Assembly (NCBI GenBank): GCA_019322485.1
Contig: JAHWIK010000001.1
Coordinates: forward strand, 1 to 54,289
DNA length: 54,289 nucleotides
Source of the DNA: Candidatus Woesearchaeota archaeon
GTDB lineage: Archaea > Nanobdellota > Nanobdellia > Woesearchaeales > JAHWIC01
Direction: 5' to 3'
The position numbers and the translations under genes were made by a program. Position 1 is the stretch's first letter. The number at the start of each line of letters is the position of its first letter. Positions 1 to 16,844 of this stretch are shown here, piece after piece. The notes below the pieces were generated by a model, which was not told the origin of the DNA, did no database searches, and worked only from the letters and a program-made list of their open reading frames with translations.

Positions 1-3000
1 AACTGAGTTGGGTCAAAGTTCTCGCTAAACTGCCATATGCTTGTATTGCTTGAGAAATCCTCTTCATCATAAGCAGCACAGACCCAGTAATAAGTTGTTC
101 CATCTGTTGTTGTCCATGTATAGCTGTCATTGCCTAAGTAAGTCATACTGCTTGGGCTTGTTCCACCCCATAGGTAATATGCCAGTGCATCACCATCAAC
201 ATCTGTAGAGCCTGAGCATGACACATTAACTGAGTTTATTGTATAGAATGAATCATTTGCAGGGCTTCTAACACTTGGAGTTGTTGGCGGTGAATTTGTT
301 AGTGTGGTTTCACTTGAATTATATGTTTCTCCATCAGTATAGCCGTCATTTGGCGTTACTGAACACTTCCAGGACTCATGTGTAATTGTTTCATTAGAAC
401 TTAAAGAGCTTAAACCGTTTTGGTAGAGTTTTTTGACTTCATTTGAGTTTAAGGAGCGGTTGAAGATAAGGACTTCGTCTATGGTGCCGTTGAAATAAGC
501 ATTTACTTCAGAGTCCTCTGGGTCATATCCTCCATAGCCTACATAAAGGTTCTCACCACCAGGACTGAATGTTCCAGATACATCTGAATCAGTAGCTACA
601 AGATTTCCATCTGTGTACATCCTTGCTACAGAACCGTCATAAGTGACAGTCACAAAATACCAATTACCAGCTGTCAACCTATTACTATCAGACAAAGATA
701 TTAATTGAACTCCGTAATCTGTATAATAGAAATATAAATCATTTCCATCATCGGTGTTTAGTGAATATGACTGTTCTTGGGCACGTTTAGCTAGAATACT
801 TCCTACATTGCTTGTTGATGCTGGATTTATCCAAGTAGCCATTGTAAAGCTTTCACTTGTTGTCCATGAGAAGTCAGCAGTCTCAATCCTATCATCAACA
901 CCATCAAACTCATAAGCACCAAATCCATCATGACCGCCAGTTTCATCATAAGTTGCACCTTGTACAGAACCCCAGTTCTCATAACCAGAGTAATCCTTTG
1001 CTTCTTCTTCTGAATCAAGGCCTTCTTCGTAGAGTGCTTGGATTTCTGTGGCTGAAAGGCTTCTGTTCCAGATGATTACTTCGTCTATTGTTGCATTAGC
1101 TTGGAGTTCAGGAGGAACTTGCGGATAGCCAGCATCTTGCGTTTTTGCCCCAATAATCAGATCTTCTGTTGAACTATATAGCCCAGTACCATCATATGTA
1201 TCTGTTGTACTTGCTACCTCCCCATTAACATAAAGCTTTATCTCACCATTGCCTGCAACGCCAACAAGGTGATACCATTTATCTTTTTCAGCGAATCCAG
1301 TTCCTGTTTGTGAACTCTGAAAAGTAGAACTATCCCTAAATGAAAATACTATATTGTTTGTGGATATCACAGAGATATGCCATCCAGTAGTACCAGTCTC
1401 AGTATTAGCTATAAATGACTGGGTTTTGTCAACTTCATTCATTTTAACCCATAAAGAAACAGTTAAGGTATCTAATTCAAAAATATCTTCTCCAATATGG
1501 ATGCTGCCGTTTTCAAACTCATAACCCTGCCCAACCTTGCCATCTGTTAGATAAGGGGGAGGGCCACCATAAACAGTCCCATCATTACCATAAACAGTTC
1601 TATCATCTGCATTGCCTTCCATGTACCAAGCACCAACCATATCAGAGTTGTTTATGTCTGTATGTTTTGAGTTAAGGCTTTCAAACGGCATGTTAAGGAC
1701 TGTTATTGATTTATCATCTACATACCAGTTAATAATCGTTTTAACTGAGTCATCATCGTTGTCATCAGAGTTATTTATAGAACATCCTAAGTCATTTGAT
1801 GTGTAAACTTCATAAGCGCCTCTTGAGGAGTTGTATAAGTCGGCTATTTCTGTTGCTGATAAGCTTCTGTTCCAGATGACTACTTCGTCTATTGTGCCGT
1901 TAAAATCATATGTTCCGCCATTTGTGGCTCCAATATACATGTTGGCATTTGCTGGGTCAAAATCCCCGGTTTCATCAACATAGACATTACTTGACTCAAC
2001 TCCATTCACATAAATTTTTCCACTATCTCCTCCATAAGTTCCAACAACGTGATACCATCCTTTGCTTGGAATTACATTATCATCAGAATAGAGCAACTCA
2101 TATCCTCCACCGTCTGTGGTGCCTATACTAAACTGTATTCCATTAATAGGTGCTGGTCCAATATTCCTATCATCAACACCAATATAGAATCCATCATAAG
2201 GTTGCGGGTCTCCAGTAGAAGTGTCAATAAATAACTGCGTATCACCATCAAAATTACCTGGGTCTGCGTAAATCCAAGCTGAAACACTCATCTCAATAGC
2301 GCCTGCTCCATATAAAGGACTTGTTCCAACATTAATCCAGTCATCACCTCCATCAAACTCATAAGCCTGGCCGACTCTTCCAGCATAAGTCTTTGTTGCG
2401 CTTGAAACAGTTCCATTATTAACACCAGTTTCATCATAAGTCCATGAAGAATTACCCCATTCAAAGCGCCATTCTCCAACTAAACCATCAGTTATATCAT
2501 TATGAGCGCCGATATAAGGTATTGAATGAGTTGGCTCTTGGTTTAGCACTAAATCATTTGAGAATAATGTTGTACCACCTATAATGCCGTCGTTTGGTGT
2601 TAAAGCGCAAGACCAGCGCTCATGCTTGTTTGTTTCGTTATGAGATAAAGAGCTTAATCCAAAGCGGTAAAGGTTTCTGATTTCATTTGTGTTTAAGGTT
2701 CTGTTGAAGATAAGGACTTCGTCTATTGAACCATTGAAATAACCTGTAAAGTCATACCCTCTTCCGATTCTTGATGGGGTGCTTGTTGTGTTTACTACCT
2801 GATTATTAATGCTAGATTCAGCTAATGATACCCCATCTACATAACAATTGATGTTTGTAGTGTTTGGTCCATCTTGTGAAAAGACATAATGATGCCACTT
2901 ACTATCATTATAAGAGAAACTGAACTTCCTATTGCCACCATCAATACCAATAAAAATAGTAGTTCCAGACTCAAATATTACGTCATAATCCGATCTGTTT

Positions 3001-6000
3001 CCGCTTGGACCAGCACCCCAGCCAAGAGGCCTTTGGTTATTACCACTCGAGGTTTTAGCCCAAAGACTAATTGTCCTATCTTGGCTTCCAGTTATAGTGA
3101 TATTCTCGCTTGTTTCAATATAATCATCAATTCCATCAAACTCATAAGCACCTTTTCCATCATGGCCAGCACTTCCGTTGAATACAGCGCCAGTAACAGT
3201 TCCATCATTGCTATAGCCGGAATAATCCTCTGTCCAGTTATCATTGTCATGTGTTGAGTTGCCTCTCCATGCCTCAAACGGCATATTAAGAACTGTTATT
3301 GAGGTATCATCTTTGTACCAGTTGTATACTGCCTTTATTGGGTCGCCGTCTCCATCATAGAGGTCATTTCCGCCGCAGCCAATGTCCTGTTCGTCATAGG
3401 CATAGTCGCCTCTGCTTGAGTCATATAAATCAGAGATTTCTGAGGCAGATAAGGAACGGTTCCAAACAATCAACTCATCTATTGTGCCATTGAAGTAATG
3501 GCTGCCCGATGAACCTATACGTGGCAATGCTCCAATTGACACTCCAAGTGTGTTTGTTATTGCATTGCCTCCTGTTGTTAGATTTACACCGTTTATGAAT
3601 ATAGCTCCTTGTTGGCCTGATTCCCATGTAAATGCAATGTGTGTCCATTCACCTGAAACCACATTACTAGCAGGGGCTTCTGCTGATAACTGATAGGCCA
3701 TACTGTCTTCTATCCACCCACTCACATAGGAGCTGTTAATCATGAGCTTTGCACGTACGCCTTCATCAAATATTACATCAGCGGTACCGGATAGTGCATT
3801 ATGGTTGACCCAAGCAGCAATTGTTATGGAAGTTCTGCCAGGATAGTCTGGATCCTGGTTAGTGCTCATATAGTCATCAACACCATCAAACTCATATGCC
3901 TTGCCTACACGACCTCCATCAGTATGGGTTGCACCATAAACTGTGTAGTTTTCTACATCACCATCTGGCTCTATATAATCAGCATATACCCAGGTTGAGT
4001 TGCCCCATTCAAATCTGAACTCATATAATCTGTCAGACTCATACTTATTATGCCCGCCGATGTAGGGGTTGTAATGTGTTGGTGTGGAGCTGATGTTTAT
4101 TGTGTCAGTTTTTGTCTTGTTTATATACCCTGATTTGGAGCAGGTAACATTCCAGCTGTATGTTCCGCCTGAAGAGAAGCTGCGCGTATATTCGTATGTT
4201 CCGCTGCTGTAGCTCATCGAGTTTCCAGTTGAGTCAGCAAAGTTTGCTATGCAGTTTGCTCCTGATATTGAATCGTTTGCAGCGTCTGTGAAGTTGGCAT
4301 AGAACTTGACATCATCCCCAGTGAACACAACATTTGAGCCAGCTTCTGCATCAGTATCATCCCAGATAGACAGGACTTCGCTGGTTAAAGGCAGCCAATC
4401 CCCAATTAATAAGTTTCCGCTGGCGTTATATGGAAGCAGGGTATCACCTACAAAATCACCATCTGTATCACTTCCAAGGTAATCAGACCACCAGTTTCCT
4501 CCTATGCATGAGCCGCCAACTATATTGGGTCCTATTGAGCAGTTGTAGGTTGCGTTCCAGGTATTGTTTGCATTTTCCCAGGCATTGATTCCATTGGTGT
4601 CGAATTTGTTATTATAGACTGTGCTGTCCTCTGAGCCGACAAACCGGATTCCATAATCATCATTGTTTTCAAATGTATTGTTTGTAAAGATATTGTACTC
4701 GCAGCCAGCCCAGACGTAGATTCCTGTGTTGCCATTGTAGCTTATTATATTGTCGTTAATAGTGTTGTTTACAGATGAGGATGAGAAGTACATTCCATAA
4801 TTCGTGTTGTTGTTAAATGAATTTGATGTGAAGTTGCTTTTTATGCTTTGGAAGACATGAGCCCCACGTTCAGTGCTATTGCTTACATTATTGGAGATGA
4901 TGTTGTTATACCCTCCATATTGAATGTAGATTCCGTAGCTGTTGTTGCTTATGGTGTTATATCTAAAGGTACTGTTGAAGACGGCGTTAAAGTCGATTCC
5001 ATGGCTTTTGCCTTCTACATAATTAGAGGTAACTGTATTATCCTTGCTGCCAAAGAGGGAGATTCCATGATTGAGGCTATTGCCTGTTATATTGTTGCCG
5101 TGAATTGTAAAGCCATTGCAGTTGCTGGCTGAATTTATTCCATTTCTGTCGCTTATTAATGTATTTGATGAAATGTTGGCGTATGAACCAGAGGTGATGG
5201 TAATTCCATTCAGGCCATTATAGCTTATATCGTTGAAAATGATGGTATTATTGTCTGAAGTGGAATAGAGGTAAATTCCATCGTACTGGCTGTTAATGGT
5301 ATTCTCTTTGATAAGGTTCAAGTCACCATAGCCGTTGATTCCACGGCCATTGGCAGCGTTTTCGCTTATATTGTTATTAGTGATATTGTTGCGGTTTGAA
5401 TTACTTAAAGTGATACCCTCATCTAGGTTTTTGGTTATCTCGTTGTAGGAAACACTGTTGTTTTGAGTTCCTTGCGACAGCCCAAGTCCAATGCTGCTGA
5501 ACTGTATTGTATTATTGGCAATAATGGTGCGCCCACCGCCGTAGAGTTGCACTCCATAATCTGTGTTGTATATAAATGTGTTATTTGTGATGATGTTGTC
5601 ATAACCACCCAGGTAGAATCCTTCCTCTGTGTTAAAGCTGACATTATTTAGGTGGAAAATGTTGCCCCAGCTGTAAGTGTAGATTCCCTCCCTGTTGTAG
5701 ATTAGGGTATTGCCAGTGTAGTTAGTATAGTGCGCGCTAGTGCCTGTGCCAATTCCATAATTAGTGTTGTTTCTTGCAGTGTTATTGGCAACGACATTTG
5801 ATGGACTGGAAGAGATGTAGATTCCAGTGCCGCCGTAACTTGCTGAATTATTTATGATATGATTGCCAGGTGTATTGCTAGAGAGGTAGATTCCCGTCTG
5901 GCTGTTATTGTTTGCAGTGTTAGAGGTAATGGTGTTGTTTGAGGCAGTATCTAGATAGATTCCATACTGGTTGTTGTTTGCATTATTGGAGGTAAGAGTG

Positions 6001-9000: not shown

Positions 9001-12000
9001 AAGGTTATATTGCAGTCTGCACCGCTTATGAATTCATCTTCCTCTCCAGTATACTGGCTTGTGTAATTTGCGTAGAAAAAGAGATAATCTCCTGTGTACT
9101 TTGTCTGCGAGCCTTCTTTTGGGTCTGTATCATCCCAGAGCGAAAGACCTGAATCCTTGCCAAAGATATCAATCCCGCTTGAGTTTAATGTGGTTCCTTC
9201 TGTATAGCCGTCATTTGGGGTGATAGAACATTTCCATAACTCATTAGTTACTGTTTCTTCGTAGGAGATTGAACTTAAACCGCTTTGGTAGAGTTTTTCT
9301 ATCTGAGCCGCAGATAGGCTTCTGTTGAAGATAAGGACTTCGTCTATTGTTCCGTTGAAATAACCACTAGTATCATAATCTCTGCCAATCAATACATCCA
9401 AATCGGTTATGTTAGCATGCGAAGGCAAGGAACCTAATGCAAATGTAGTGGGGGTGTGGTTTTCTCCATTTACCCAGATTTCCATGTGTTCATTTCCTTT
9501 GAATCTTGCTACAGCGTGATACCAAGTATCTTTTTGTAAAGCTTGATTGCTGCAAATCAACCCACCGCTAAAAGGGGTGCCTGATTTGGATATTGTCAGT
9601 TCAAGCCTATCTGTTCCGCAGAATTGAGTATCATCGAATGTGAATTCCCATCCTCTTTTAGCTGCTCCAGCATAGTATTTCTGTACTATTCCTTGCCTCT
9701 GTCTTGTTGTGCCCCCTACCAAACTTCTTAGATTTATCCAAGCAGATATTGTGAATTCTGTGCTTACATCTAAGCTATCGTCATCACTTATATTGATATA
9801 AGTTGAATTTCCATCAAACTCATAAGCACCAAAGCCGTCATAACCACCAGTTGAGTTCCAGGTTGAACCATTGACAAACCCATCATTACCATAGCCAGAA
9901 TAATCGATTGCAAAGTCATCTGCATCATGCGTTGCATTGCCCCAGCCCTCAAACGGCATGTTAAGTATTGTTAGCGACTTATCATCAACATACCAGTCGA
10001 TTATTGGCTTGACTGAATCTTCATCTGCATCAGCAGAATTATTTAATGAACAGCCAATGTCATTATCTAGGTAAGCATAGTCTCCTTTGCTTGATTCGTA
10101 TAGTTTTTCAATTTCTGTTGCTGATAAGGAACGGTTCCAGATTATGACTTCATCAATTGTGCCGTTCCAGAAATATGTTTCAGGCGTACCATCTAGGTCA
10201 GCATCATATGCTCCTATCCCTAAGACAATACTTGTTGTAGGAATTCCAGAAGTTTTTGCCTCACCATAAGTATTTGTTCCATTTACGTATATTCTACCAT
10301 AGCCACTAGAATCAAATGTGTATGCAACATGATACCACTTATCATTTTGAGTTATTGAGCCAGTTGACTCAATTACATCTTTATGCCAGACAATTCCCTT
10401 TATTTGTCCAGTAGAAAGAACATCGATTCCATAAGCTCCTGCCTTTGTTGCGATTATTTGCTCCCCAGAAGAATAGTTCTTGGGTTTAATCCAAGCAGCG
10501 ATAGTTAATTCATCGCTTATATCTAAGGGATTGCTATCGGCAATCTTAATATAATCATCAACACCATCAAACTCATAAGCCTGTCCAACACGGCCTTCAT
10601 ATGTGTGGTTGGCGCCACTTACAGTTCCATTATTAACCTCAGTCTCATCGTAAGTCCAAGTAGAATTCCCATATTCAAAGCGCCATTCGCCAACTAAGCC
10701 TGAATCAATCCTGTTGTGCGCTCCAATGTAAGGTGTGGAATGTGTTGGGTCTGTGTTTAGTGTGATGTTATCGCTTGCAGTTTGGCTTTCATAGCTGTCA
10801 TGCTCGCAGCTAACATTCCAGTAATGGGTGCCTGACTCTGAGAAGGTTCTTTCATGTTTGTAAAGTTGCTGGAGTTTGAGGATATACGTATCGCTTGACA
10901 TAGTACCAACTATGACCTTTTCTTTGGAATCTAATGCAACTGAATAACCAAAATAACTTTCTTCAGTTGGGCCAGTCCAATTATACTCTCCTAACTTATT
11001 GCCATCAGAATCAAGCTTCTCCACATGCAGGTCATAATAAATCCTACCTGTAATATCTTGGCCCTCTCCTGAAATAATAATATTATCATTAGAATCAATT
11101 GCAACTGAACGGGCTGAATCATGATCTTGAGTTATGTCACTCCAATTATACCCCCATAACTTATTGCCATCAGAATCAAGTTTTTCTACATGCCAATAAT
11201 ATATGTTACCTGTAGTTCTTCCTCTTCCTACAACAACAATATCATCATTAGAATCCACTGCGACACCATAGGCAATGTCAACGGCAGAACCTGGACTGCT
11301 CCAATTATACCCCCATACCTTACCGCCGCTAGAATTCAACTTCTCCACATGCCAATCAGAAAAACTCTTCTGTCCTGCAACAATAATATCATCATTGGAA
11401 TCAACTGCAACTGAACGAGCATCATCAGTTACACTGCCAGAGCTAGTCCAGTTATACCCCCATAGTTTACTTCCACTAGAATTCAACTTCTCCACATGCC
11501 AGTCATAACCTGAAATAGACATAACCCCTGCAACAATAATATCATCATTGGAATCAACTGCAACTGAATAAGCCACATCAGCAGCTGAGCCACTCCAATT
11601 ATACTCCCAGATTTCGTCACCACTACTATTTAATTTTTTCACATGCCAATCATAGTTTGAACTTCCACTTATGAGGTCATTTCCATATCCTGCAACAATA
11701 ATATCATCATTAGAATCCACTGCAACCCCAACAGCACCTTCTGGGTCTGAATTATTCCATACAAACTCCCACTGCTTTGTACCATTTGAGTAAAGTTTCT
11801 CCACATGCCAATCATAGACAACACCAGCCACATATTGATAATCCCCTGCGAGGATAATCTCATCATTAGAGTCCACTGCAACCGACCTGGCAACATATTC
11901 ATAGATGCTTGGGTCACTTAGATTATAACTCCACAACAAGTGATAACCTTCAGGCATATTATAACTTCCATCACTGAAGTCAATAGTGCAACTTCCGTTG

Positions 12001-15000
12001 CTTATAGGCAGTCCAACCTCACCAGTATATGCATTTGAGTAATTGGCATAGAACATTACATCATCCCCTAATCTTTTGCCTTGTGAACCGCCTTGCGGGT
12101 CATTATCATCCCAGACTGAAAGAGACGAGTCCTTGATGGTATTGGTTTCGCTTGAGTTTAATGCAGTTCCTTCTGTATAGCCGTCAGTTGGGGTGATAGA
12201 ACACTTCCATTCTTCACTATATACTGTTTCGTTGTGAGAGATTGAGCTTAAGCCAGACTGGTAGAGTTTTCTGACTTGGTTTGCGTTTAAGCTTCTATTG
12301 AAGATAAGGACTTCGTCGATTGTTCCGTCGAAATACCTGTTATTAAAATCCAACCCGAACCTAACATCTGCATTAGCACCTATAGTTCCTGATATAGTGC
12401 CTGTTGAGCCAGCAGCATCTAATTCTCCATTAATCCAGGTTTTTGGTGCTTCTCCACTCTTCCAGGTTCCAACGACATGGTACCACGCCCCCGTGCCTAG
12501 TGAGTTACCTGATGAATAGCCATATTTATATGTAGAACCGTTGCCAATATAGAACTCGAGCCTATTATTCGCACCATTACCAGAAAAAAAGACCGCATCA
12601 TTAGTACCACTTCTGGACTCTATTATTGGGTCGGCTATATCAAAATCATCAATATTTATCCATGCTGAAACAGTTGTTTCATCCATGCCATAAAATAAGG
12701 CTTCGCTTATTGTGATATAATCATCACCACCATCAAACTCATAAGCACCCCAGCCATCATAGCCGCCAGTTCTGTTAAAGGTTGCATTTATTACCCTTCC
12801 ACTCTTGTTGTGGGGAGAATAATCCCTTGTCCACCCTATGCCTGCTGAGTTGTTCCATTCAAACGGCATATTCAAGATAGTTAATGATTCACCATCTTTG
12901 TACCAGTTGATTATTGGCTTGACTGAATCACCATCTGCGTCAGCTGAATTATTTAGTGAGCAGCCAATATCACTATCTAGGTAAGCATAATCTCCTTTGC
13001 TTGATTCGTATAGTTTTTCAATTTCTGTTGCTGATAAGGAACGGTTCCAGATGGTTACTTCGTCTATTGTGCCGTTGAAATGATTTGGTATCCCTGCGGA
13101 TGGATAATTTCCGATAGTTACATACCCCGTAGTTGTACCTCCAAATGTAGAGGCATCTTCGAAAAACTCACCATTAACATATAAGCTTGCTTTGGAAGTT
13201 GTGGTATCAAAAACAGCTACAAGGTGAGTCCAATCTGTTGTTATGCTATATGAGGAGTCCCAATAGTTTGCTCCAGTCATCAAAGCAGCTTTCCCATTCT
13301 CTAAAAGTAAGGTCCAATCATAACCTCCGTTATCTGGGCATATAATCCATTGTTTGACAGATGGGCTCTCTGTTTTAACCCACGCACTATAAGTTAATGC
13401 AGATGGTGTAGTGAAAGTAAGGCTAGTTTGTACCCTCTCAGTGCTACTATCAAACCAATAACCCTTACCAACCCTGCCTTCATCAGTATGTGTTGCACCA
13501 GTAACAGTTCCATTATTCCTTCCGGTTTCATCATAAGTCCAGGTAGAATTGCCCCATTCGAAGCGCCATTCGCCAACTAAGCCTGAATCAAGCCGGTTAT
13601 GCGCGCCAATGTAAGGTATTGAATGTGTTGGTGCATTAGTTTCATCATTGTATGCATAACCAACATCACTGCCAAACCTAAACTCTAAAGTAACATGCCC
13701 TTCTTTTAGTTTCAGGCTTGATTCATAGCCAGTTTCATTGCAGGAATAATCTTCAACAAACACAGAACTGTTTCCAGAGCTTCTGTTAATCCAGGTATAA
13801 TTAACTAGAGCATCACCGCACCTAAGCTCAATGAAATTGTAGTTGTAATCTGTTCCATTGTAACCAGCAATATCTGTCCAGGTTGCACCATTAATTGGTG
13901 TTATTGTCAGATTAGCTGTTCCAGTTGTGTTAAACATAACAGTCCAGTTGTCGCCAACCTCAGGATAGCTGATGATATTGAGTATATCTATCTCAGTACC
14001 AAATCCTGAGAAGTGCTCAGCAGTAAAGGTTAATCTGCCATTAACAGGGTCATAGCTTATGTCATGGCATATATCACATTCCTTGCCATTAGCAATAATC
14101 TCCTCCCTTGAGCTGTAGAATCCATCTGCGTAATAGATTTTAGGAATTCCTGAGTACCATACATTCTCTAGGGTTATTGTAACAGAATGATTAAAGCTTT
14201 TATCTAAAGCAGATGAATTTGCAGAAACAAATCCAAAGCCAAGCTTTACATTTGTGTTGTAATCTTCTCTGCTTGTATTCACACCATACTCTTCACCAAA
14301 CTCAATCTTTCCATCACTAGTTGCAAGAGTTAGATTTGTGACATTCTCAAAGTCGCTTATTATCCTAAAGTCAGTGCTTCCTTCAGCTCTGTCAAATTCA
14401 GCAGCAAAAGGAACACCTCTTTCATATGTTTCGCTGTAAGCTACTATGCCAGAGTCCAAACTGAATGCATAATCCTCGCCAGGTGTTATATTCAAGGCTT
14501 CTTCCCAACCACCAGAGCATTCCTGCGAATTAGCATCCCAGCCATCGCATCTGTAAAGTTTATCACCTTTTGCAGTTACATTTACAGCTGCATCTGTAAA
14601 GTTTACCTTGGATGAATCTATTGCATATAGCTCAAACAGCTCTCCTGTTTCATTCAGGTCATCTATGTTAATCAGGTCTGTTGTGTTGGAATAAAGCTCT
14701 ACATCCTTGATGACTATTCCCCTAACAGGATGGTTCTTGAGCCTGATGTTTATATCATAGATTCCTTCTTTTATCTTTATGTAATCCTGCTCAGGCTTTA
14801 AATAAGAGGTATCAAGTATGCTGTCAATAAGCTCTACCACAGCATCCTCAAGCTTTTTGAGCTTTGATGTTTTTACATGCGCAGAGAAGATAATCTCTTT
14901 AGGAATGCCAAACTCGTAAACCTCCAAAGCTTCTTTTTTGCCAATAAGAAGCCAGAATGAGGACTTATCCCAATCAAGAATAGTTAGTCTAACTCGTTCA

Positions 15001-16844
15001 TCTGCTGATGATTCTTTTTTGAGGATATCATACTTAACCTTTCCTTTAACATCAATCTTTAATGTTTCATCAGCATTATGGTGGAAAACAACAACTAAAT
15101 CATTGCCATCCTCATACAATTCATCAATGAAAACATCATAGCCTGGGTTATCCCTGAGCTTCTTATAGCTTACATTCGCACTTATGTTTATCTCAACAAG
15201 AGGCATCAGCCTTGTTATTGTGTAATCAAGGTCATCAACATAGATTGTTGAATCACCTATTAATTCAAATCTTAGCCTATAGGAACTTGCATTAAGGCCG
15301 GCTAATACGCAGGTTTCAATGCAGATATCTGAGAAGTCAATGAATTCAATAAATTTAGCATCAAGGCTTAATGTATCTGAATAGTAAATCTCTGAGTATG
15401 GAACCTCTAAGTCATAATCAGCATAGATTACCTGCGCTGTAACAATATTGCTGAGAGTAGCGCCAAACCTTCCATAGCTTAAATCCAAAGGAGCATCCCA
15501 CCCAGCCTGGAATGGAGCAACTCCAACCAAAGCGCAGCAATCAGCACTGCCTTGGCAAACAACAGTTATCTCTGAGTTCTCTTCAGAATAGATTTCCCAT
15601 TTTGTGCAGAGCTTAGAGTAATCCGCATCAAACCCAAATGTTGTATCTTTTACAGTAAAGTCAATTGCTCTTCTTATGTCTTCAATACCATCATCATCAG
15701 CATCAAAGGTTGTGCCAGGATTATATTTTAAATTAATATTTATTTCTTCTAGTGTTTCATTTACTGGTTCTGTAATGGTTTCATTCACAGATGTTTCATT
15801 TATTTGTTCTGTTTCATTTATTGGTGTTGTTTCGTTTAATGTTTGATTTACTGTTTCATTTATTATTGAATTGTTTTCTATTGATTGATTTGTTGTTTCA
15901 TTGATTATTTCTTCAGTTGTTTCATTCAAAACAACATAGCCAGTAATCGCGGGAGGCTCTTCTATCAGCTCAGAACTGTCAAATATTAAGTATTCAGAGC
16001 CTTCATACTCAAGGTAAACTTTAGCACTGCCGCTTACCTTTCCATCCAGCCTAAGAGATCTTAGCTCACCTGGATATGACATATACCACAAGTATGAAGT
16101 AGAGTTAGCTGCTTTGAAATCAATGTGCTCTGTGTAGTTTATTTCCTCACCTGCAGTAATCCTTCCTACAATTGTAGGCCCTGTTATAAAGACATTTGTC
16201 AGCACTAATGCAATCATCAAAACAAACAGCCAGATTGATATGTTTTTTGTTAGCTGATTGCTTTGTATAGGTTTAACCTTTTCAGGCTTCTTTCTAGCAG
16301 CAGGCTTTTCAATAATTTTATGGATATCAAAAACTTCCTTGCGCCATTCCTTAGCTATCTCCCAATCAATATGCGCAACAAGACTGACATAGGTATCTCT
16401 TAGTTTTGGATATACAACTGCTAGTTTTTGTGAGCCAGCAGCTGACCTTGCCTGAGCTAAGAGCTTATTGAACTGAGATACTTTATGGCTGGTAGACCTG
16501 GGTGCATAATAGCCATAAGCTATAATCATTACAGCAAGAACTGCAATCACAAGCAGGAGTGCTGCTGGTGCAAGCAGTTTTGGCAGGCTAAGCCCCAGTG
16601 ATGCAAAGCCAACAATTGAGGTTTCTGTAAACACAAACACAAAAACCAGAACCAGCAGTATTGCTCCAAGGTACAAGCTGCGGTTAGTAATCTCTTCAAG
16701 CTCATAAGACCTAATCAATCTTTCAGTAGTTTCTACATCATGGCCATAAGCAATAAGGGCTTTCTTAATAGAGCTGATACTATAACCTCTTTCTAAACTG
16801 TTCCTTATGTACTTCTTCAGCCCTTTTTCCTGTTGTTTATCCAT
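1..16844 (-). CDS. Giant cell-surface protein, 3'-truncated by the window edge (at least 5614 aa). Order from N- to C-terminus: cytoplasmic N-module, TM helix, NET-sequon linker, Cys-containing region, LamG_3-type modules interleaved with two SBBP beta-propeller arrays, a long parallel beta-helix, then further LamG_3 modules.
   Basis: ATG at 16844-16842 (minus). The six-frame track lists no minus ORF of 60 aa or more in this frame between 1 and 16844, which fits one stop-free frame leaving the window. Three spot translations all fall in the frame p mod 3 = 2. At 13079 down: FNGTIDEVTIWNRSLSATEI. At 8411 down: ADYAYSVAVDSDDNIIVAGFGGNLSEDS. At 6221 down: TQNNTITNNTVNDNQYGIYLYQAHNNTVTSN. N-terminus translated: MDKQQEKGLKKYIRNSLERGYSISSIKKALIAYGHD...LYLGAILLVLVFVFVF (TM). 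The DEV-I-NRSLS-EI-LY motif is confirmed nine times, at about 13050, 12300, 10130, 9330, 3465, 2710, 1870, 1065 and 460. Confidence 0.85.
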   Translation of the reverse strand, partial: MDKQQEKGLKKYIRNSLERGYSISSIKKALIAYGHDVETTERLIRSYELEEITNRSLYLGAILLVLVFVFVFTETSIVGFASLGLSLPKLLAPAALLLVIAVLAVMIIAYGYYAPRSTSHKVSQFNKLLAQARSAAGSQKLAVVYPKLRDTYVSLVAHIDWEIAKEWRKEVFDIHKIIEKPAARKKPEKVKPIQSNQLTKNISIWLFVLMIALVLTNVFITGPTIVGRITAGEEINYTEHIDFKAANSTSYLWYMSYPGELRSLRLDGKVSGSAKVYLEYEGSEYLIFDSSELIEEPPAITGYVVLNETTEEIINETTNQSIENNSIINETVNQTLNETTPINETEQINETSVNETITEPVNETLEEININLKYNPGTTFDADDDGIEDIRRAIDFTVKDTTFGFDADYSKLCTKWEIYSEENSEITVVCQGSADCCALVGVAPFQAGWDAPLDLSYGRFGATLSNIVTAQVIYADYDLEVPYSEIYYSDTLSLDAKFIEFIDFSDICIETCVLAGLNASSYRLRFELIGDSTIYVDDLDYTITRLMPLVEINISANVSYKKLRDNPGYDVFIDELYEDGNDLVVVFHHNADETLKIDVKGKVKYDILKKESSADERVRLTILDWDKSSFWLLIGKKEALEVYEFGIPKEIIFSAHVKTSKLKKLEDAVVELIDSILDTSYLKPEQDYIKIKEGIYDINIRLKNHPVRGIVIKDVELYSNTTDLINIDDLNETGELFELYAIDSSKVNFTDAAVNVTAKGDKLYRCDGWDANSQECSGGWEEALNITPGEDYAFSLDSGIVAYSETYERGVPFAAEFDRAEGSTDFRIISDFENVTNLTLATSDGKIEFGEEYGVNTSREDYNTNVKLGFGFVSANSSALDKSFNHSVTITLENVWYSGIPKIYYADGFYSSREEIIANGKECDICHDISYDPVNGRLTFTAEHFSGFGTEIDILNIISYPEVGDNWTVMFNTTGTANLTITPINGATWTDIAGYNGTDYNYNFIELRCGDALVNYTWINRSSGNSSVFVEDYSCNETGYESSLKLKEGHVTLEFRFGSDVGYAYNDETNAPTHSIPYIGAHNRLDSGLVGEWRFEWGNSTWTYDETGRNNGTVTGATHTDEGRVGKGYWFDSSTERVQTSLTFTTPSALTYSAWVKTESPSVKQWIICPDNGGYDWTLLLENGKAALMTGANYWDSSYSITTDWTHLVAVFDTTTSKASLYVNGEFFEDASTFGGTTTGYVTIGNYPSAGIPNHFNGTIDEVTIWNRSLSATEIEKLYESSKGDYAYLDSDIGCSLNNSADADGDSVKPIINWYKDGESLTILNMPFEWNNSAGIGWTRDYSPHNKSGRVINATFNRTGGYDGWGAYEFDGGDDYITISEALFYGMDETTVSAWINIDDFDIADPIIESRSGTNDAVFFSGNGANNRLEFYIGNGSTYKYGYSSGNSLGTGAWYHVVGTWKSGEAPKTWINGELDAAGSTGTISGTIGANADVRFGLDFNNRYFDGTIDEVLIFNRSLNANQVRKLYQSGLSSISHNETVYSEEWKCSITPTDGYTEGTALNSSETNTIKDSSLSVWDDNDPQGGSQGKRLGDDVMFYANYSNAYTGEVGLPISNGSCTIDFSDGSYNMPEGYHLLWSYNLSDPSIYEYVARSVAVDSNDEIILAGDYQYVAGVVYDWHVEKLYSNGTKQWEFVWNNSDPEGAVGVAVDSNDDIIVAGYGNDLISGSSNYDWHVKKLNSSGDEIWEYNWSGSAADVAYSVAVDSNDDIIVAGVMSISGYDWHVEKLNSSGSKLWGYNWTSSGSVTDDARSVAVDSNDDIIVAGQKSFSDWHVEKLNSSGGKVWGYNWSSPGSAVDIAYGVAVDSNDDIVVVGRGRTTGNIYYWHVEKLDSDGNKLWGYNWSDITQDHDSARSVAIDSNDNIIISGEGQDITGRIYYDLHVEKLDSDGNKLGEYNWTGPTEESYFGYSVALDSKEKVIVGTMSSDTYILKLQQLYKHERTFSESGTHYWNVSCEHDSYESQTASDNITLNTDPTHSTPYIGAHNRIDSGLVGEWRFEYGNSTWTYDETEVNNGTVSGANHTYEGRVGQAYEFDGVDDYIKIADSNPLDISDELTIAAWIKPKNYSSGEQIIATKAGAYGIDVLSTGQIKGIVWHKDVIESTGSITQNDKWYHVAYTFDSSGYGRIYVNGTNTYGEAKTSGIPTTSIVLGIGAYDADLDGTPETYFWNGTIDEVIIWNRSLSATEIEKLYESSKGDYAYLDNDIGCSLNNSADADEDSVKPIIDWYVDDKSLTILNMPFEGWGNATHDADDFAIDYSGYGNDGFVNGSTWNSTGGYDGFGAYEFDGNSTYINISDDDSLDVSTEFTISAWINLRSLVGGTTRQRQGIVQKYYAGAAKRGWEFTFDDTQFCGTDRLELTISKSGTPFSGGLICSNQALQKDTWYHAVARFKGNEHMEIWVNGENHTPTTFALGSLPSHANITDLDVLIGRDYDTSGYFNGTIDEVLIFNRSLSAAQIEKLYQSGLSSISYEETVTNELWKCSITPNDGYTEGTTLNSSGIDIFGKDSGLSLWDDTDPKEGSQTKYTGDYLFFYANYTSQYTGEEDEFISGADCNITFSDGTYSMDEWNKFIWMYNWTGPAGVAGVGVCRAIDVDSSDNMVIGGYGYNLIGSSSYDWHVEKLNSSGDKLWEYNWTASSVDYVYGVAFDSSGNVIAAGSGWQLMGSTSTDWHVEKLNSSGSKLWGYNWTGPAGASGTDYVYSVAVDSDDNIIVAGTGVNLTGDDSADWHVEKLNSSGSLLWDYNWTGPGAGAFGGADYAYSVAVDSDDNIIVAGFGGNLSEDSYRDWHVEKLNSSGSKLWEFNWTGPVFGPLAWGADYAYSVAVDSDDNIIVAGYGTNLTGDSTSDLHVKKLNSSGSQVWEYNWTGPSTDVPQGVDVDSSGDIIVAGYGLNLTGDDSDDWYVQKLNSSGSLVWEYNWTSPGDTGTQEYAYAVAVDSDDNPIVVGFGTNLSGSDTYYDWQVEKLNKNLYQTYAYERTFSDPGTQEWNVTCSHDDYEAQTSSDDAQIEVGDCGATITGDTTLGKNLSQTGSGTCITIGADDITLDCAGHNITGDQSSTSYGIDNNGKDNVTVKNCNVNNFTQGIYWRGGANDGLLINNTAYDNVETGIYLLSSNNNNLTSNTVTFNTQDGILVRQGSNHNILTNNTANNNSRYGIYVWSSSNTTLTSNTANNNTDYGIYIYFQADNNTLTSNTANDNKRGIYVYLGSNNILTSNNANNNTNYGILLSQVSKYNYLASNTANGNYYGIYAGAESNNNTITLNNASNSGYAGILLSSSHNNTVTFNNANKNNRDGFSIYSNSNYNTFTSNNANNNTQQGFYFSSSSNNVLTNNTARNNTQNGFYLTTNAKNNNFTSNAANDNADYGIYLQSNCNYNTITNNTVNGNERGFYIVSSSNNTFTHNTVNNNTWYGFYFATSADSNLISNNTINYNYYGIYGNPIRYSNITNNTVIDNTNYGIRISSTNARYNLVSGNTVNDNQYGIYIYGSTTQNNTITNNTVNDNQYGIYLYQAHNNTVTSNVVKGSSLRGFWIREAKYNTFTSNTANNSPTGRGMYFSNNAHYNTLTSNNANNNQYGIYLDTASNNTITSNTANNNSQTGIYLSSNTPGNHIINNSASYGGTGIYISSSPSNVVANNTARNNTNYGIGTGTSAHYTNYTGNTLIYNREGIYTYSWGNIFHLNNVSFNTEEGFYLGGYDNIITNNTFIYNTDYGVQLYGGGRTIIANNTIQFSSIGLGLSQGTQNNSVSYNEITKNLDEGITLSNSNRNNITNNNISENAANGRGINGYGDLNLIKENTINSQYDGIYLYSTSDNNTIIFNDISYNGLNGITITSGSYANISSNTLISDRNGINSASNCNGFTIHGNNITGNSLNHGISLFGSKDNTVTSNYVEGKSHGIDFNAVFNSTFRYNTISNNSYGIYIQYGGYNNIISNNVSNSTERGAHVFQSIKSNFTSNSFNNNTNYGMYFSSSSVNNTINDNIISYNGNTGIYVWAGCEYNIFTNNTFENNDDYGIRFVGSEDSTVYNNKFDTNGINAWENANNTWNATYNCSIGPNIVGGSCIGGNWWSDYLGSDTDGDFVGDTLLPYNASGNLLIGDWLPLTSEVLSIWDDTDAEAGSNVVFTGDDVKFYANFTDAANDSISGANCIANFADSTGNSMSYSSGTYEYTRSFSSGGTYSWNVTCSKSGYINKTKTDTINISSTPTHYNPYIGGHNKYESDRLYEFRFEWGNSTWVYADYIEPDGDVENYTVYGATHTDGGRVGKAYEFDGVDDYMSTNQDPDYPGRTSITIAAWVNHNALSGTADVIFDEGVRAKLMINSSYVSGWIEDSMAYQLSAEAPASNVVSGEWTHIAFTWESGQQGAIFINGVNLTTGGNAITNTLGVSIGALPRIGSSGSHYFNGTIDELIVWNRSLSASEISDLYDSSRGDYAYDEQDIGCGGNDLYDGDGDPIKAVYNWYKDDTSITVLNMPFEAWRGNSTHDNDNWTEDYSGYSNDGTVTGAVFNGSAGHDGKGAYEFDGIDDYIETSENITITGSQDRTISLWAKTSSGNNQRPLGWGAGPSGNRSDYDVIFESGTTIFIGIDGGNRKFSFSYNDSKWHHYVFSQDGPNTTNINCYVDGVSLAESSINNQVVNTTSTPSRIGRGYDFTGYFNGSIDEVLIFNRTLNTNEIRNLYRFGLSSLSHNETNKHERWSCALTPNDGIIGGTTLFSNDLVLNQEPTHSIPYIGAHNDITDGLVGEWRFEWGNSSWTYDETGVNNGTVSSATKTYAGRVGQAYEFDGGDDWINVGTSPLYGAGAIEMSVSAWIYADPGNFDGDTQLFIDTSTGDPQPYDGFYIGVDDRNIGPAPINGIQFSIGTTDGGGYELLYSDDNVIPSKGWYHVVGTYGGDSGKIYVNGVESSNVYVDETGDFDPANANMYIGATNGGTYDFNGTIDEVVIWNRSLSATEIADLYNSSRGAYEVYTSNDLGCSINNSDDNDDDSVKTIINWYVDDKSITVLNMPFESLNSKHTDINNSDMVGAWYMEGNADDRTVYGNDGTVYGGPPPYLTDGKVGQGYEFENGSIHIGEDIFELDTLTVSLWVKMNEVDKTQSFIANTETGTTGWHISVISTNNIVFSFRDSSTFQSSQTGTGFAEKDKWYHLVGVAGNGEIKLYVNGEVASTTDTYDGTGLYSSTEDLIIGAKTQDAGYPQVPPELQANATIDEVIIWNRSLSATEIQALYEEGLDSEEEAKDYSGYENWGSVQGATYDETGGHDGFGAYEFDGVDDRIETADFSWTTSESFTMATWINPASTSNVGSILAKRAQEQSYSLNTDDGNDLYFYYTDYGVQLISLSDSNRLTAGNWYFVTVTYDGSVARMYTDGNLVATDSDVSGTFSPGGENLYVGYGGYDPEDSEVNAYFNGTIDEVLIFNRSLNSNEVKKLYQNGLSSLSSNETITHESWKCSVTPNDGYTDGETYNSSETTLTNSPPTTPSVRSPANDSFYTINSVNVSCSGSTDVDGDALAYYLWGGTSPSSMTYLGNDSYTWTTTDGTTYYWVCAAYDEEDFSSNTSIWQFSENFDPTQ
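4500..7500 (-). repeat. Region of ~66-nt periodic repeats encoding a right-handed parallel beta-helix (PbH1 / NosD-like coils, roughly 40-45 turns) within the giant protein.
   Basis: Translation gives a reiterated NNTITNNTVNDNxYGIYLxxSxNNTxTSN pattern. The out-of-frame 166-aa T/Q/M-rich ORF at 6539..7039 is a shadow of this periodicity. Confidence 0.7.
7800..9000 (-). repeat. SBBP-type beta-propeller repeat array 2 (about eight units, several nearly identical at the DNA level) inside the giant gene.
   Basis: Units beginning ccagttatactcccacaa at about 7939, 8085, 8259, 8438, 8606, 8773 and 8945. Long identical stretches, for example atcagaatcaacagctactgaataggcatagtctgctcc near 8197 and 8375. 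Translation: DWHVEKLNSSGSKLWEFNWTGP...ADYAYSVAVDSDDNIIVAG. Confidence 0.75.
10880..11950 (-). repeat. SBBP-type beta-propeller repeat array 1 (about seven units of ~150-170 nt) inside the giant gene.
   Basis: Recurrent DNA units of the form ccaattatacccccata...gaattcaacttctccacatgcca. The protein units read like WHVEKLNSSGxxLWxYNW...YxVAVDSNDDIIVAG. Confidence 0.7.
15735..15930 (-). repeat. Low-complexity stretch of GTTTCATT-like units on the plus strand, encoding Asn-Glu-Thr and Asn-x-Ser/Thr sequon repeats of the giant protein (NETTEEIINETTNQSIENNSIINETVNQTLNETTPINETEQINETSVNETITEPVNETLEE).
   Basis: Direct reading of the repeated tttcatt units and their translation in the giant ORF frame. 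Confidence 0.8.

What the first reader, a model, noticed from the sequence alone, without database searches (positions are those of the whole stretch)
1..16844. Giant (>5,600 aa, gene longer than 16.8 kb) modular surface protein running off the window: LamG_3 x9, SBBP propellers x2, long beta-helix
One stop-free frame spans the whole first 16.8 kb on the minus strand, and the protein continues beyond the window. The domain grammar suggests a host- or substrate-attachment organelle of the kind reported in small-genome episymbiotic archaea: an N-in signal-anchor, a glycosylation-sequon linker, repeated ConA-like jelly-roll modules (DEVxIWNRSLSAxEIxxLY), two probable 7-bladed SBBP propellers and a ~1000-aa NosD-like beta-helix. 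The full length, the missing C-terminal end and the exact module order are not visible here.
Basis: partly seen in the sequence, partly recalled or inferred. Interest (0 to 1): 0.8.

Follow-up and report, generated by a model that had tools for sequence, protein, structure and literature searches.

The report
Very large Woesearchaeota lectin-like surface protein
The first 16.8 kb of this contig encode the first 5,614 residues of a membrane-anchored, sequon-rich surface protein of a Woesearchaeota (DPANN) archaeon, built from sugar-binding-type modules; it is a real and well-built example of a kind already reported in small-celled archaea.

Summary
The minus-strand frame 3..16916 has 5,638 codons and no stop (chance about 1e-169). 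The likely start is ATG 16844, giving 5,614 aa that run off the end. The window is the whole 54,289-bp contig, and the protein is already public as MBW2979781.1, an auto-annotated partial beta-helix repeat protein from Candidatus Woesearchaeota.

The domain grammar holds:
- Nine Laminin_G_3 domains.
- A NosD-type beta-helix of about 1,075 aa (41 coils detected).
- Two seven-bladed propellers. These pass NCBIfam delta-60 repeat, but Pfam SBBP is below its cutoff.
- A sequon-rich linker.

Corrections and additions:
- The N-terminal anchor has three hydrophobic segments behind a small cytoplasmic domain.
- Each propeller is inserted inside an Ig-like module.
- The first ~1,070 aa form a conserved stem. 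It contains a six-cysteine Ig-like domain that no Pfam or NCBIfam model covers, yet it occurs in at least 616 protein clusters.
- The syntenic ortholog in a sister genome keeps the stem (53% identity) but carries a different distal array.

The most likely role is multivalent glycan-binding adhesion; this is inferred, not shown. It is a new member of a known kind, of moderate interest.

The parts
3..16844 (-). Visible coding sequence of the very large protein (aa 1-5614; 3' end missing because the contig ends)
   Evidence: Stop-free frame. Identical to MBW2979781.1 / P0135, which ends at the same residue.
16837..17292 (-). Upstream 151-aa protein with two helix-turn-helix-like repeats; its stop overlaps the large gene's start by 8 nt
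   Evidence: Sigma70_r4_2 at 23.1 bits, below the 25.7 cutoff. Internal duplication seen in the sequence. ATGGATAA junction. 87% identical and syntenic in L002.
16680..16844 (-). N-terminal cytoplasmic mini-domain (aa 1-55)
   Evidence: Conserved in P0001, P0230 and P0158. About 9-10 family members match this stretch. No Pfam or NCBIfam hit.
16173..16676 (-). Membrane anchor: hydrophobic segments aa 57-80, 88-112 and 201-224, with a basic loop at aa 113-200
   Evidence: Kyte-Doolittle windows above 1.8. The loop has K+R 18 against D+E 8, while the region after the third segment has 6 against 17. The topology is inferred from the positive-inside rule.
15885..16148 (-). D1, first ectodomain module (aa 233-320), flanked by ITG[YF]-type motifs
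   Evidence: Aligned with P0001-P0005. About 115 family proteins match it.
15729..15884 (-). N-x-S/T sequon linker (aa 321-372)
   Evidence: 8 sequons in 52 aa. Its length varies among homologs.
15189..15728 (-). CysD: conserved six-cysteine Ig-like domain (aa 373-552), the signature of the family
13635..15188 (-). Rest of the conserved stem (aa 553-1070), including blocks M3 (aa 690-805) and M4 (aa 950-1066)
   Evidence: BLASTP depth among family members is about 23 for M3 and about 42 for M4. No family hit and no solved homolog. Collinear at 53% identity with ortholog P0158.
12150..13634 (-). LamG unit 1: LamG1 (aa 1132-1275), then an 'NWYxD...WxCxxTPxDG' module with LamG2 (aa 1371-1524) between its halves
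   Evidence: The nesting of LamG2 is only weakly supported.
10758..12122 (-). Ig-like module 1 split by seven-bladed propeller 1 (Ig halves aa 1575-1630 and 1993-2029; propeller between them)
   Evidence: Blade HMM. TIGR02608 at 78.0 against 76.5. AlphaFold2 gives 28 strands with pLDDT above 90. Best solved match is CylK, 7roo, E = 9e-22. Split alignment to the intact copy.
9165..10748 (-). LamG unit 2: LamG3 (aa 2093-2245) and LamG4 (aa 2344-2515)
7665..9146 (-). Ig-like module 2 split by seven-bladed propeller 2 (Ig halves aa 2567-2627 and 3023-3060)
   Evidence: Blade HMM. TIGR02608 at 123.3 bits. Split alignment. No structure model was made for this copy.
4440..7664 (-). Right-handed parallel beta-helix (aa 3061-4135), at least 41 coils of 23-24 aa
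   Evidence: NosD and Beta_helix. Coil HMM. 55 sequons. Weak sequence match to the AlgG epimerase helix, E = 1.8e-5.
4089..4376 (-). Ig-like module 3, the uninterrupted copy (aa 4157-4252)
270..4082 (-). LamG units 3 and 4: LamG5-9 (aa 4320-4470, 4570-4722, 4831-5000, 5111-5268, 5314-5470)
3..269 (-). Last visible module (aa 5526-5614), a small beta-sandwich-type domain cut at the contig end
   Evidence: By eye it resembles a domain of P0225 ('...DSDALTYLYWG...TYTWKC...'). Not tested further.

Best explanation
This is the 5' 16.8 kb of a native chromosomal gene of a Woesearchaeota (DPANN) archaeon. It encodes a cell-surface protein of at least 5,614 aa (at least 617 kDa before any glycan).

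Shown:
- A small N-terminal domain and three hydrophobic segments.
- A conserved stem of about 850 aa (D1, a sequon linker, the six-cysteine Ig-like CysD, and blocks M3 and M4).
- A distal array: two [LamG, LamG, Ig-like module with an inserted seven-bladed delta-60/SBBP propeller] units, a 41-coil beta-helix rod, one intact Ig-like module and five more LamG domains.
- N-x-S/T sequons at twice the density expected from composition.

Inferred:
- The N-terminus stays in the cytoplasm and anchors the protein, and everything after residue 224 is outside the cell and N-glycosylated.
- The beta-helix acts as a rigid spacer. At the usual ~4.8 A rise per coil of parallel beta-helices (my own knowledge), 41 coils give roughly 20 nm.
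- The many ConA-like jelly rolls and propellers act together as a multivalent lectin that binds glycans on another cell's envelope (a host or partner) or on polysaccharide particles.
- The stem is the constant, cell-proximal part. The distal array is the exchangeable, specificity-determining part.
- The missing C-terminus probably ends in a hydrophobic segment with a basic tail, as in complete relatives.
For: - Frame and start.
- Domains: Laminin_G_3 x9, NosD and Beta_helix; delta-60 repeat above cutoff in both arrays; a seven-bladed fold with 28 strands that matches the CylK propeller.
- Insertion of the propellers into an Ig-like module: the intact copy aligns to each split copy in two pieces breaking at model positions 54-58.
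- Extracellular, glycosylated nature: 199 sequons against 102 +/- 8.7 in shuffles (z = 11). The density is 3.5 per 100 aa, against 0.37 in the other ORFs and 0.9 in the N-terminal 232 aa. The charge bias fits N-in, ectodomain-out.
- Native gene: GC and GC3 resemble the housekeeping genes, and the gene sits at the same place next to the same upstream gene in the sister genome L002.
- Conserved stem, swapped distal array: ortholog P0158 is collinear at 53% identity over aa 1-1130 only, whereas flanking housekeeping proteins are mostly 80-91% identical.
- Family: CysD occurs in 616 cluster representatives. All members that carry an organism name are Woesearchaeota, Nanoarchaeota or Nanoarchaeia. 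Several are 3,200-5,600 aa long.
- C-terminal anchor in complete relatives.
- Published analogy: LamG-rich and giant surface proteins are proposed to mediate host recognition in cultivated DPANN (PMC10266531, PMC5498576; bioRxiv 10.1101/2023.10.27.564410).
Against: - No experiment or expression data bears on function, and no binding partner is known.
The contig encodes a full lysine pathway, aspartate kinase and homoserine dehydrogenase, so dependence on a host is not shown.
- LamG_3, beta-helix and propeller folds are also common in glycoside hydrolases, lyases and S-layer-associated proteins.
- The distal end, which would be the functional tip of an N-anchored protein, is missing.
- The complete family member P0005 (1,457 aa) has no C-terminal hydrophobic segment, so a second anchor is not universal in the family.
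- Whether the third hydrophobic segment is cleaved as a signal peptide was not determined.
Confidence: 0.6

Rival explanations
1. It is a substrate-capture and degradation protein. The beta-helix would be a catalytic CASH / pectin-lyase-like domain, and the LamG and propeller modules would act as carbohydrate-binding modules that hold polysaccharide or a prey or host cell wall for digestion.
For: NosD and Beta_helix families belong to the carbohydrate-binding and sugar-hydrolase type of helix. There is a weak sequence match to the AlgG mannuronan epimerase helix. One LamG stretch matches an arabinanase module at E = 0.0016. Similar 'pectin lyase-like' surface proteins of Nanobdella were proposed to degrade the host wall (10.1101/2023.10.27.564410).
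Against: The helix is a very regular array of 41 coils carrying 55 sequons. It has no insertion or domain that matches a catalytic family above threshold. The only solved match is weak (26 bits) and covers 148 of 1,075 residues. No glycoside hydrolase or lyase family was hit anywhere in the protein.
Confidence: 0.15
2. It is a structural envelope component: a glycocalyx- or S-layer-associated coat protein that protects or shapes the cell, with no specific partner.
For: [quoted passage not shown] 2002) is cited in the reference list of PMC5498576, read. A LamG unit matches an 'S-layer domain-containing protein' structure, 4qvs, at E = 1.5e-7. Sequon density is very high. Complete relatives look anchored at both ends.
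Against: A housekeeping coat protein would be expected to be conserved. Here the distal array is replaced between sister genomes, and even the stem is only 53% identical against 80-91% for neighbouring genes. Family members differ greatly in length and content.
Confidence: 0.15
3. It is a SPEARE-like conduit. As proposed for nanohaloarchaeal giant proteins, the ectodomain would bind the host and a C-terminal membrane and ATPase part would move effectors.
For: It is of comparable size and also comes from a DPANN archaeon. The C-terminus is unseen, so an ATPase domain cannot be excluded (PMC10266531, read).
Against: The N-terminus differs: a polytopic anchor rather than a Sec signal peptide. No VirB4/TraG or other secretion gene lies in the 37 kb beyond the gene's 5' end, the only flanking DNA the contig holds. 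Complete members of this protein's own family end in a hydrophobic segment plus a short basic tail, with no ATPase-sized cytoplasmic domain.
Confidence: 0.05
4. It is an assembly artefact: a chimeric or collapsed join of several repeat-containing genes.
For: The contig ends inside the gene. Relatives are also often cut at contig ends, which shows that such genes are hard to assemble.
Against: There is one frame with no stop over 16.9 kb. Internal DNA repeats are at most 87% identical. GC and GC3 are uniform. The stem is collinear with an independently assembled ortholog. Complete relatives reach 5,598 aa with the same kinds of modules.
Confidence: 0.03

Closest known systems
MBI4439939.1, 'LamG domain-containing protein [Candidatus Woesearchaeota archaeon]' (P0237, 5,598 aa, complete)
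   Same: Same family. It has an N-terminal hydrophobic segment, D1, CysD and block M4 (39% identity over aa 951-1066). It then carries 11 LamG domains set in the same 'NWFxD...W.ANVTPNDG' modules, with dense sequons.
   Different: It has no propellers, and my LamG and blade HMM scan found only LamG there; I did not scan it for a beta-helix. Its N-terminus is a single hydrophobic segment without the mini-domain. It is complete and ends in a hydrophobic segment plus a basic tail.
MBW2984264.1 (P0158), the syntenic ortholog in Woesearchaeota MAG Yap2000.bin4.8 (contig JAHWIC010000009.1 = L002)
   Same: It sits at the same genomic position, next to the same upstream HTH gene. It has the same mini-domain, three hydrophobic segments and stem, collinear at 53% identity over about 1,130 aa.
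   Different: After the stem it has a Cys/Asp-rich region of about 550 aa that is absent here, then an FN3-like region and a LamG. It is also cut by its contig end, at 1,984 aa.
Nanohaloarchaeal giant surface ('SPEARE') proteins, e.g. SVXNc_0300 (9,409 aa) (PMC10266531)
   Same: Very large, membrane-associated, mostly extracellular modular proteins of DPANN archaea, proposed to bind the host. LamG-rich surface proteins are encoded in the same genomes.
   Different: SPEARE proteins have a Sec signal peptide, long Ig/FN3 arrays, and a C-terminal membrane part with a VirB4/TraG-like ATPase next to a second ATPase gene. None of these is seen here, and the stem with CysD is not described there.
LamG-like jelly-roll expansions and PKD/YVTN/CARDB surface proteins of 'Ca. 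Mancarchaeum acidiphilum' Mia14 (PMC5498576), and the lectin-like and pectin-lyase-like proteins of Nanobdella aerobiophila (10.1101/2023.10.27.564410)
   Same: The same building blocks (LamG or lectin-like modules, beta-propellers, parallel beta-helix, Ig-like folds, many sequons) and the same proposed role in contact with the host.
   Different: In those organisms the modules are spread over several proteins of about 1,000-3,000 aa. Here they are concatenated in one chain of more than 5,600 aa with nested domains.
CylK C-terminal seven-bladed propeller (PDB 7roo), the best solved match to the propeller
   Same: Seven-bladed propeller, Foldseek E = 9e-22, 21-23% identity.
   Different: CylK is a cyanobacterial Friedel-Crafts alkylating enzyme with an additional Ca-binding domain. 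Nothing suggests that chemistry here.

Membership tests
Pfam PF13385 Laminin_G_3 (ConA-like lectin/glucanase superfamily) | Score above the Pfam gathering cutoff (27.6 bits), with full-length domain matches | tested here: met
   Whole-piece scores are 151, 162 and 376 bits, with 2 + 2 + 5 stretches, most covering profile positions 1-150 of 151. My own HMM gives nine domains with E from 1e-39 to 1e-61.
Pfam PF05048 NosD / PF13229 Beta_helix (right-handed parallel beta-helix) | Score above the gathering cutoffs (23.6 and 25.9 bits) and tandem coils of about 22-24 aa | tested here: met
   NosD scores 316 and 239 bits; Beta_helix scores 245 and 207 bits. 41 coils with modal spacing of 23-24 aa.
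Pfam PF06739 SBBP beta-propeller repeat | Score above the gathering cutoff (20.5 bits) | tested here: not met
   17.9 bits. DUF5122 scores 24.0 against 27, and NHL 16-17 against 20. However, most of the 120 listed homologs of this region carry precomputed PF06739 and/or PF17164.
NCBIfam TIGR02608 delta-60 repeat domain | Score above the curated cutoff (76.5 bits) | tested here: met
   Array 1 scores 78.0 bits and array 2 scores 123.3 bits.
Seven-bladed beta-propeller fold | 28 strands in seven four-stranded blades, with similarity to solved seven-bladed propellers | tested here: met
   AlphaFold2 on array 1 gives 28 strands, with pLDDT mostly above 90. The best solved match is the CylK propeller, E = 9e-22. 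Array 2 rests on the blade count only.
Unnamed 'CysD-stem' family of Woesearchaeota/Nanoarchaeota surface proteins (defined here) | A hydrophobic segment, then D1, a sequon linker, and CysD with six conserved cysteines near the N-terminus | tested here: met
   Alignments A2, A3 and A4. 616 representatives. 141 of 167 have a hydrophobic segment upstream of CysD, and the median CysD start is residue 175.
Unnamed 'CysD-stem' family | C-terminal hydrophobic segment plus basic tail (seen in the complete large members) | not testable with these tools
   The contig ends inside the gene. The exact DNA of the contig end is absent from the other collections.
Nanohaloarchaeal SPEARE / giant secretion-associated proteins | An N-terminal Sec signal peptide followed directly by Ig-like arrays | tested here: not met
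   The N-terminus is a 55-aa soluble domain plus three hydrophobic segments and an 88-aa basic loop.
Nanohaloarchaeal SPEARE / giant secretion-associated proteins | A C-terminal VirB4/TraG-like ATPase domain and an adjacent VirB4-like ATPase gene | not testable with these tools
   The C-terminus and the downstream DNA are missing. No such gene lies in the 37 kb beyond the gene's 5' end.
Diversity-generating retroelement (DGR) target protein | A nearby reverse transcriptase and a template/variable repeat pair with adenine-specific mismatches | tested here: not met
   No reverse transcriptase among the contig's ORFs. The best internal repeat pair has mixed mismatches. The unseen 3' end, where variable regions usually lie, could not be tested.
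'Giant gene' in the sense of West-Roberts et al. (over 30 kb, over 10,000 aa) | Length above 10,000 aa | tested here: inconclusive
   5,614 aa are visible and the end is missing. By that paper's wording it is a 'very large' (>= 5,000 aa) protein (10.1101/2023.11.21.568195).

The most novel reading that the evidence does not exclude
The CysD stem marks a widespread, so far unnamed system in Woesearchaeota and Nanoarchaeota. A constant membrane-proximal stem, often anchored at both ends of the chain, would carry exchangeable distal cassettes of lectin-type modules. These cassettes would be swapped between closely related genomes and would act as the partner- or host-specificity determinant of these uncultivated archaea. 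The nested propeller-in-Ig and LamG-in-module designs would be part of a cassette-shuffling grammar.
Probability: 0.3. Interest if true: 0.6.

Novelty: new member of a known kind. Interest (0 to 1): 0.4.

Why it matters
As far as I know, Woesearchaeota are abundant but have no cultivated member, and their partners are unknown (my own knowledge, not checked here). A surface protein this large is an obvious candidate for the molecule that decides what these cells stick to, because its stem is conserved across hundreds of relatives while its distal lectin array differs between sister genomes. The conserved CysD stem, which no domain database covers, gives a simple handle for finding the whole family in metagenomes. 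Comparing distal arrays with co-occurring organisms then becomes possible. None of this changes how DPANN surface proteins are understood in general. It adds a well-dissected example and a searchable family signature.

Tried and rejected
- Extending the contig failed. The first 60 bases of the window have no exact match in genome contigs or metagenome contigs. A neighbouring HAD protein is not on record. The window later turned out to be the whole contig.
- There are no tRNA or Rfam matches anywhere in the window.
- CP070655.1, an 'Omnitrophota chromosome' of 1.14 Mb, looked like a close complete relative. It shares only a 2.1-kb stretch at 83% nucleotide identity next to runs of N, so I do not use it as evidence of a small genome.
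- The DGR idea was rejected for the visible part: no reverse transcriptase, and no adenine-specific mismatches.
- Foreign-island origin was rejected: GC and GC3 match the housekeeping genes, and the locus is syntenic in L002.
- The claim that LamG domains are nested inside the 'NWYxD...WxCxxTPxDG' module remains inconclusive. An intact-looking copy from P0225 aligns on both sides of each LamG, but the E-values are only 1e-3 to 0.3. The motif positions fit.
- The two Ig half-segments flanking propeller 1 were not resolved by AlphaFold2 (pLDDT below 50), because the alignment had no depth there. The insertion claim rests on sequence only.
- CysD was tested for a new fold. It is a generic Ig/FN3-like sandwich.
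- Residues 553-1070 have no family hit and no solved relative.
- The Woesearchaeota genomics papers I checked do not mention such proteins. Castelle et al. 2015 is not held in the library.
Full report
Yes. On the minus strand, one frame runs from window position 16916 down to position 3 without a stop: 5,638 codons. With this strand's base composition a random codon is a stop with probability 0.067, so the chance of such a run is about 1e-169. Two ATGs lie near the top of the frame. The residues that follow it (MDKQQEKGLKKYIRNSLERGYS...) form a small domain conserved at the N-terminus of homologs. This ATG also overlaps the stop codon of the upstream gene (ATGGATAA) and has a GAGG 8-11 nt upstream. 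From that start the visible protein is 5,614 aa, about 617 kDa, with a calculated pI of 4.3.

**2. Where does it come from, and why does it stop?**
An exhaustive profile search returned a protein of exactly 5,614 aa that is identical to the window's translation and ends at the same residue. It is NCBI MBW2979781.1, 'right-handed parallel beta-helix repeat-containing protein, partial [Candidatus Woesearchaeota archaeon]'. Its only contig is 54,289 bp long, which is the length of the window. So the window is the whole contig, and the gene is cut by the contig end. That explains why the contig's terminal DNA could not be found elsewhere.

The rest of the contig is ordinary archaeal chromosome:
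- TFIIE-alpha, eIF2-gamma, ribosomal proteins S6e and L10e, NOG1 GTPase, PTH2 and a class I lysyl-tRNA synthetase.
- A complete DAP lysine pathway, with aspartate kinase and homoserine dehydrogenase.

The closest relative among species-representative genomes is the Woesearchaeota MAG Yap2000.bin4.8. Its contig (L002) is syntenic with window 16.8-37.6 kb, mostly at 80-91% protein identity. The gene's GC (0.404) and GC3 (0.357) resemble those of housekeeping genes (0.398 and 0.372). It is therefore a native gene, not a recent island.

**3. Anatomy**
Residues are numbered from the ATG at 16844.

N-terminus and anchor:
- Residues 1-55 are a small soluble domain.
- Hydrophobic segments lie at 57-80, 88-112 and 201-224.
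- The loop at 113-200 has 18 K+R against 8 D+E. The 96 residues after the third segment have 6 against 17. This fits a cytoplasmic N-terminus and loop, with everything after residue 224 outside. The topology is inferred from the positive-inside rule.

Stem:
- D1 (233-320).
- A linker with 8 N-x-S/T sequons in 52 residues (321-372).
- CysD (373-552), a domain with six conserved cysteines.
- About 520 further residues containing two blocks shared with relatives, M3 (690-805) and M4 (950-1066).
- None of the first 1,100 residues matches a Pfam or NCBIfam model above cutoff. Residues 553-1070 have no solved relative.

Distal array:
- LamG1 and LamG2.
- An Ig-like module carrying propeller 1.
- LamG3 and LamG4.
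- An Ig-like module carrying propeller 2.
- A beta-helix (3061-4135).
- One intact Ig-like module (4157-4252).
- LamG5 to LamG9.
- The start of another small sandwich domain at the contig edge.

**4.
- Laminin_G_3 is found in 2 + 2 + 5 = 9 stretches, far above the Pfam cutoff. An HMM built from one copy recovers the same nine. The motif DE[VL]x[IV][WF]NR occurs nine times.
- NosD and Beta_helix score between 207 and 316 bits. A coil HMM finds 41 coils with modal spacing of 23-24 residues.
- For the propellers, Pfam SBBP, DUF5122 and NHL all fall below their cutoffs. So the refutation test 'HMM searches return none of the named families' is narrowly not met for SBBP itself.
- The substance of the propeller call still holds. 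NCBIfam TIGR02608 (delta-60 repeat) passes its cutoff in both arrays. Most homologs of the region carry PF06739 and/or PF17164. Each array has seven blade units with a closing strand. An AlphaFold2 model of array 1 has 28 strands at high confidence, and its best solved match is the seven-bladed propeller of CylK (E = 9e-22).

**5. Nested design**
The roughly 96-residue Ig-like module occurs once uninterrupted (4157-4252). When that copy is used as a query, it aligns to each of the other two copies in two pieces that break at query positions 54-58:
- Copy 1: residues 1575-1630 and 1993-2029, with 362 residues in between.
- Copy 2: residues 2567-2627 and 3023-3060, with 395 residues in between.

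The piece E-values range from 2e-11 to 4e-7. The inserted residues are the propellers. This shows domain insertion at the sequence level. The structure model did not resolve the flanking halves, because the alignment had no depth there.

A second small module (NWYxD ... WxCxxTPxDG) brackets LamG2, LamG4, LamG6 and the pair LamG8-9. Intact-looking copies exist in relatives, but the split alignment is statistically weak. That nesting is plausible but unproven.

**6. Extracellular, glycosylated character**
The protein has 199 N-x(not P)-S/T sequons, against 102 +/- 8.7 in composition-preserving shuffles (z = 11). That is 3.5 per 100 residues. The other ORFs of the contig have 0.37 per 100, and the N-terminal 232 residues have 0.9. 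Sequon enrichment is the expected signature of an archaeal N-glycosylated surface protein (established knowledge). Glycosylation itself is not shown.

**7. Assembly quality**
Internal direct DNA repeats reach at most 87% identity over 218 nt, and most are 60-85%. Nothing suggests collapse in the visible part. The gene nevertheless broke the assembly, as do many of its relatives.

**8. The family**
A word-indexed search with the first 1,100 residues found only five homologs. An exhaustive HMM search with a CysD profile found 616 cluster representatives at E <= 1e-3, of which 530 score at or below 1e-10.

Among 167 sequences analysed:
- CysD starts at a median position of 175.
- 141 have a hydrophobic segment upstream of CysD.
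- Lengths range up to 5,614 aa, and many are fragments.
- 17 are at least 3,000 aa long.

Every member that carries an organism name is labelled Woesearchaeota, Nanoarchaeota or Nanoarchaeia. The distal parts differ widely, for example 11 LamG domains in P0237 and FG-GAP repeats in P0005.

The complete large members P0237, P0209, P0251, P0274, P0229, P0247 and P0231 end in a hydrophobic segment followed by a basic tail. Those proteins therefore appear tethered at both ends, or C-terminally anchored if the N-terminal segment is cleaved. One complete smaller member (P0005) lacks this feature. By analogy the missing C-terminus here probably contains such an anchor, but this cannot be tested on this contig.

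**9. Evolution**
The syntenic ortholog in the sister genome (P0158, MBW2984264.1, on the L002 contig) is collinear with this protein only over residues 1-1130, at 53% identity. It then continues with a Cys/Asp-rich region of about 550 aa that has no counterpart here, followed by a LamG domain. Flanking housekeeping proteins are mostly 80-91% identical. The stem is thus conserved but fast-evolving, and the distal array has been replaced. This pattern is expected for a molecule engaged with a changing external partner. It argues against a constant structural coat.

**10. How it most likely works**
- Shown: the domain content, order and nesting; the sequon enrichment; the anchor-like N-terminus; the conserved stem; and the swapped distal array.
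- Inferred: the protein is an N-anchored, N-glycosylated fibre. Its beta-helix acts as a rigid spacer of roughly 20 nm (41 coils at about 4.8 A each, from general knowledge of parallel beta-helices). Its nine ConA-like jelly rolls and two propellers act as a multivalent lectin for glycans on a partner cell or on particulate polysaccharide.
- Basis for the inference: the known roles of these folds, and published proposals for cultivated DPANN archaea, where LamG-rich and giant surface proteins are held to mediate host recognition (PMC10266531, PMC5498576, 10.1101/2023.10.27.564410).
- Confidence: I put about 0.6 on this model. The rivals are a polysaccharide-degrading role for the helix (0.15), a structural coat (0.15), a SPEARE-like secretion conduit (0.05) and an assembly artefact (0.03).

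**11. Comparison with what is known, and novelty**
Very large DPANN surface proteins and LamG expansions are documented. The propeller, Ig and beta-helix grammar of archaeal surface proteins has been known since the Methanosarcina work cited in PMC5498576. By the size classes of West-Roberts et al. (10.1101/2023.11.21.568195), the visible part is 'very large' (>= 5,000 aa), not 'giant' (> 10,000 aa).

It is not a SPEARE protein. The N-terminus differs, and no secretion ATPase gene is nearby, although the C-terminus cannot be checked. The protein is already in public databases with an automatic name.

Four things are new here:
- The dissection of the protein.
- The recognition of a widespread, unmodelled stem family.
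- The sequence-level proof of propeller-in-Ig insertion.
- The stem-constant, array-swapped pattern between sister genomes.

I file it as a new member of a known kind, with interest 0.4.

Noticed in passing
window 24919-26256 (-): A 445-aa ORF with no Pfam family above cutoff. Its N-terminus (LIDYIKSEEAQGYTVKQLYDYLIKQGYDSKEV, then a hydrophobic segment) resembles the large protein's N-terminal mini-domain plus anchor (phmmer E = 0.012 among the window's ORFs). It is followed by about eight repeats of the type 'FIVYDGxExGKEYD...NGKxAY'. This may be a second surface protein that uses the same cytoplasmic tag.
   Followed up: partly
window 16837-17292 (-): A 151-aa protein made of two copies of a roughly 45-aa helix-turn-helix-like unit (LEAxVEYLK...RNIWTxYxR). 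Its stop overlaps the large gene's start by 8 nt. It is 87% identical and in the same position in the sister genome L002, so it is possibly a co-transcribed regulator.
   Followed up: partly
window 23528-32053: The class I lysyl-tRNA synthetase gene (26281-27849) sits inside a lysine biosynthesis cluster: aspartate kinase, an aminotransferase, DAP decarboxylase, DHDPS and DapB. Homoserine dehydrogenase is nearby. This is more biosynthetic capacity than I would expect from a strongly reduced episymbiont, on my general knowledge of DPANN genomes.
   Followed up: no
L001 9423-11566 (CP070655.1, 'Candidatus Omnitrophota bacterium isolate bin81 chromosome'): This bacterial 'chromosome' record holds a 2.1-kb stretch that is 83% identical in DNA to this archaeal contig (LysRS plus part of the aminotransferase). 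It lies next to 400 N, and no further synteny is seen. The most likely explanation is a mis-binned or chimeric scaffold.
   Followed up: partly
window 32945-33991 (-) and 19969-21090 (+): Two more genes diverge much faster than their neighbours: 44% and 42% identity to L002, against 80-91%. The first has a signal-peptide-like N-terminus, a T/Q/P-rich linker and a C-terminal hydrophobic segment plus basic tail, so it is another surface protein. The second has no family hit.
   Followed up: no
window 15885-16244 (aa 201-320) and homologs P0001-P0005: A short motif, (I/L)TG(Y/F/L)x(V/T), follows the last hydrophobic segment and recurs right after D1 in this protein and its homologs (e.g. ITGPTIV / ITGYVV here). 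Its meaning (a strand start or a processing site) is unknown.
   Followed up: no
window 6539-7039 (-): A 166-aa ATG ORF lies in another frame of the same strand, inside the beta-helix coding region. It is most likely a by-product of the repetitive, stop-poor sequence.
   Followed up: no
P0209, P0274, P0246 (relatives): Some complete family members carry a 'TPGFSYFAI' motif before the C-terminal hydrophobic segment. P0246 is named 'PGF-pre-PGF domain-containing protein' by NCBI. This hints at a C-terminal module typical of archaeal surface proteins.
   Followed up: no
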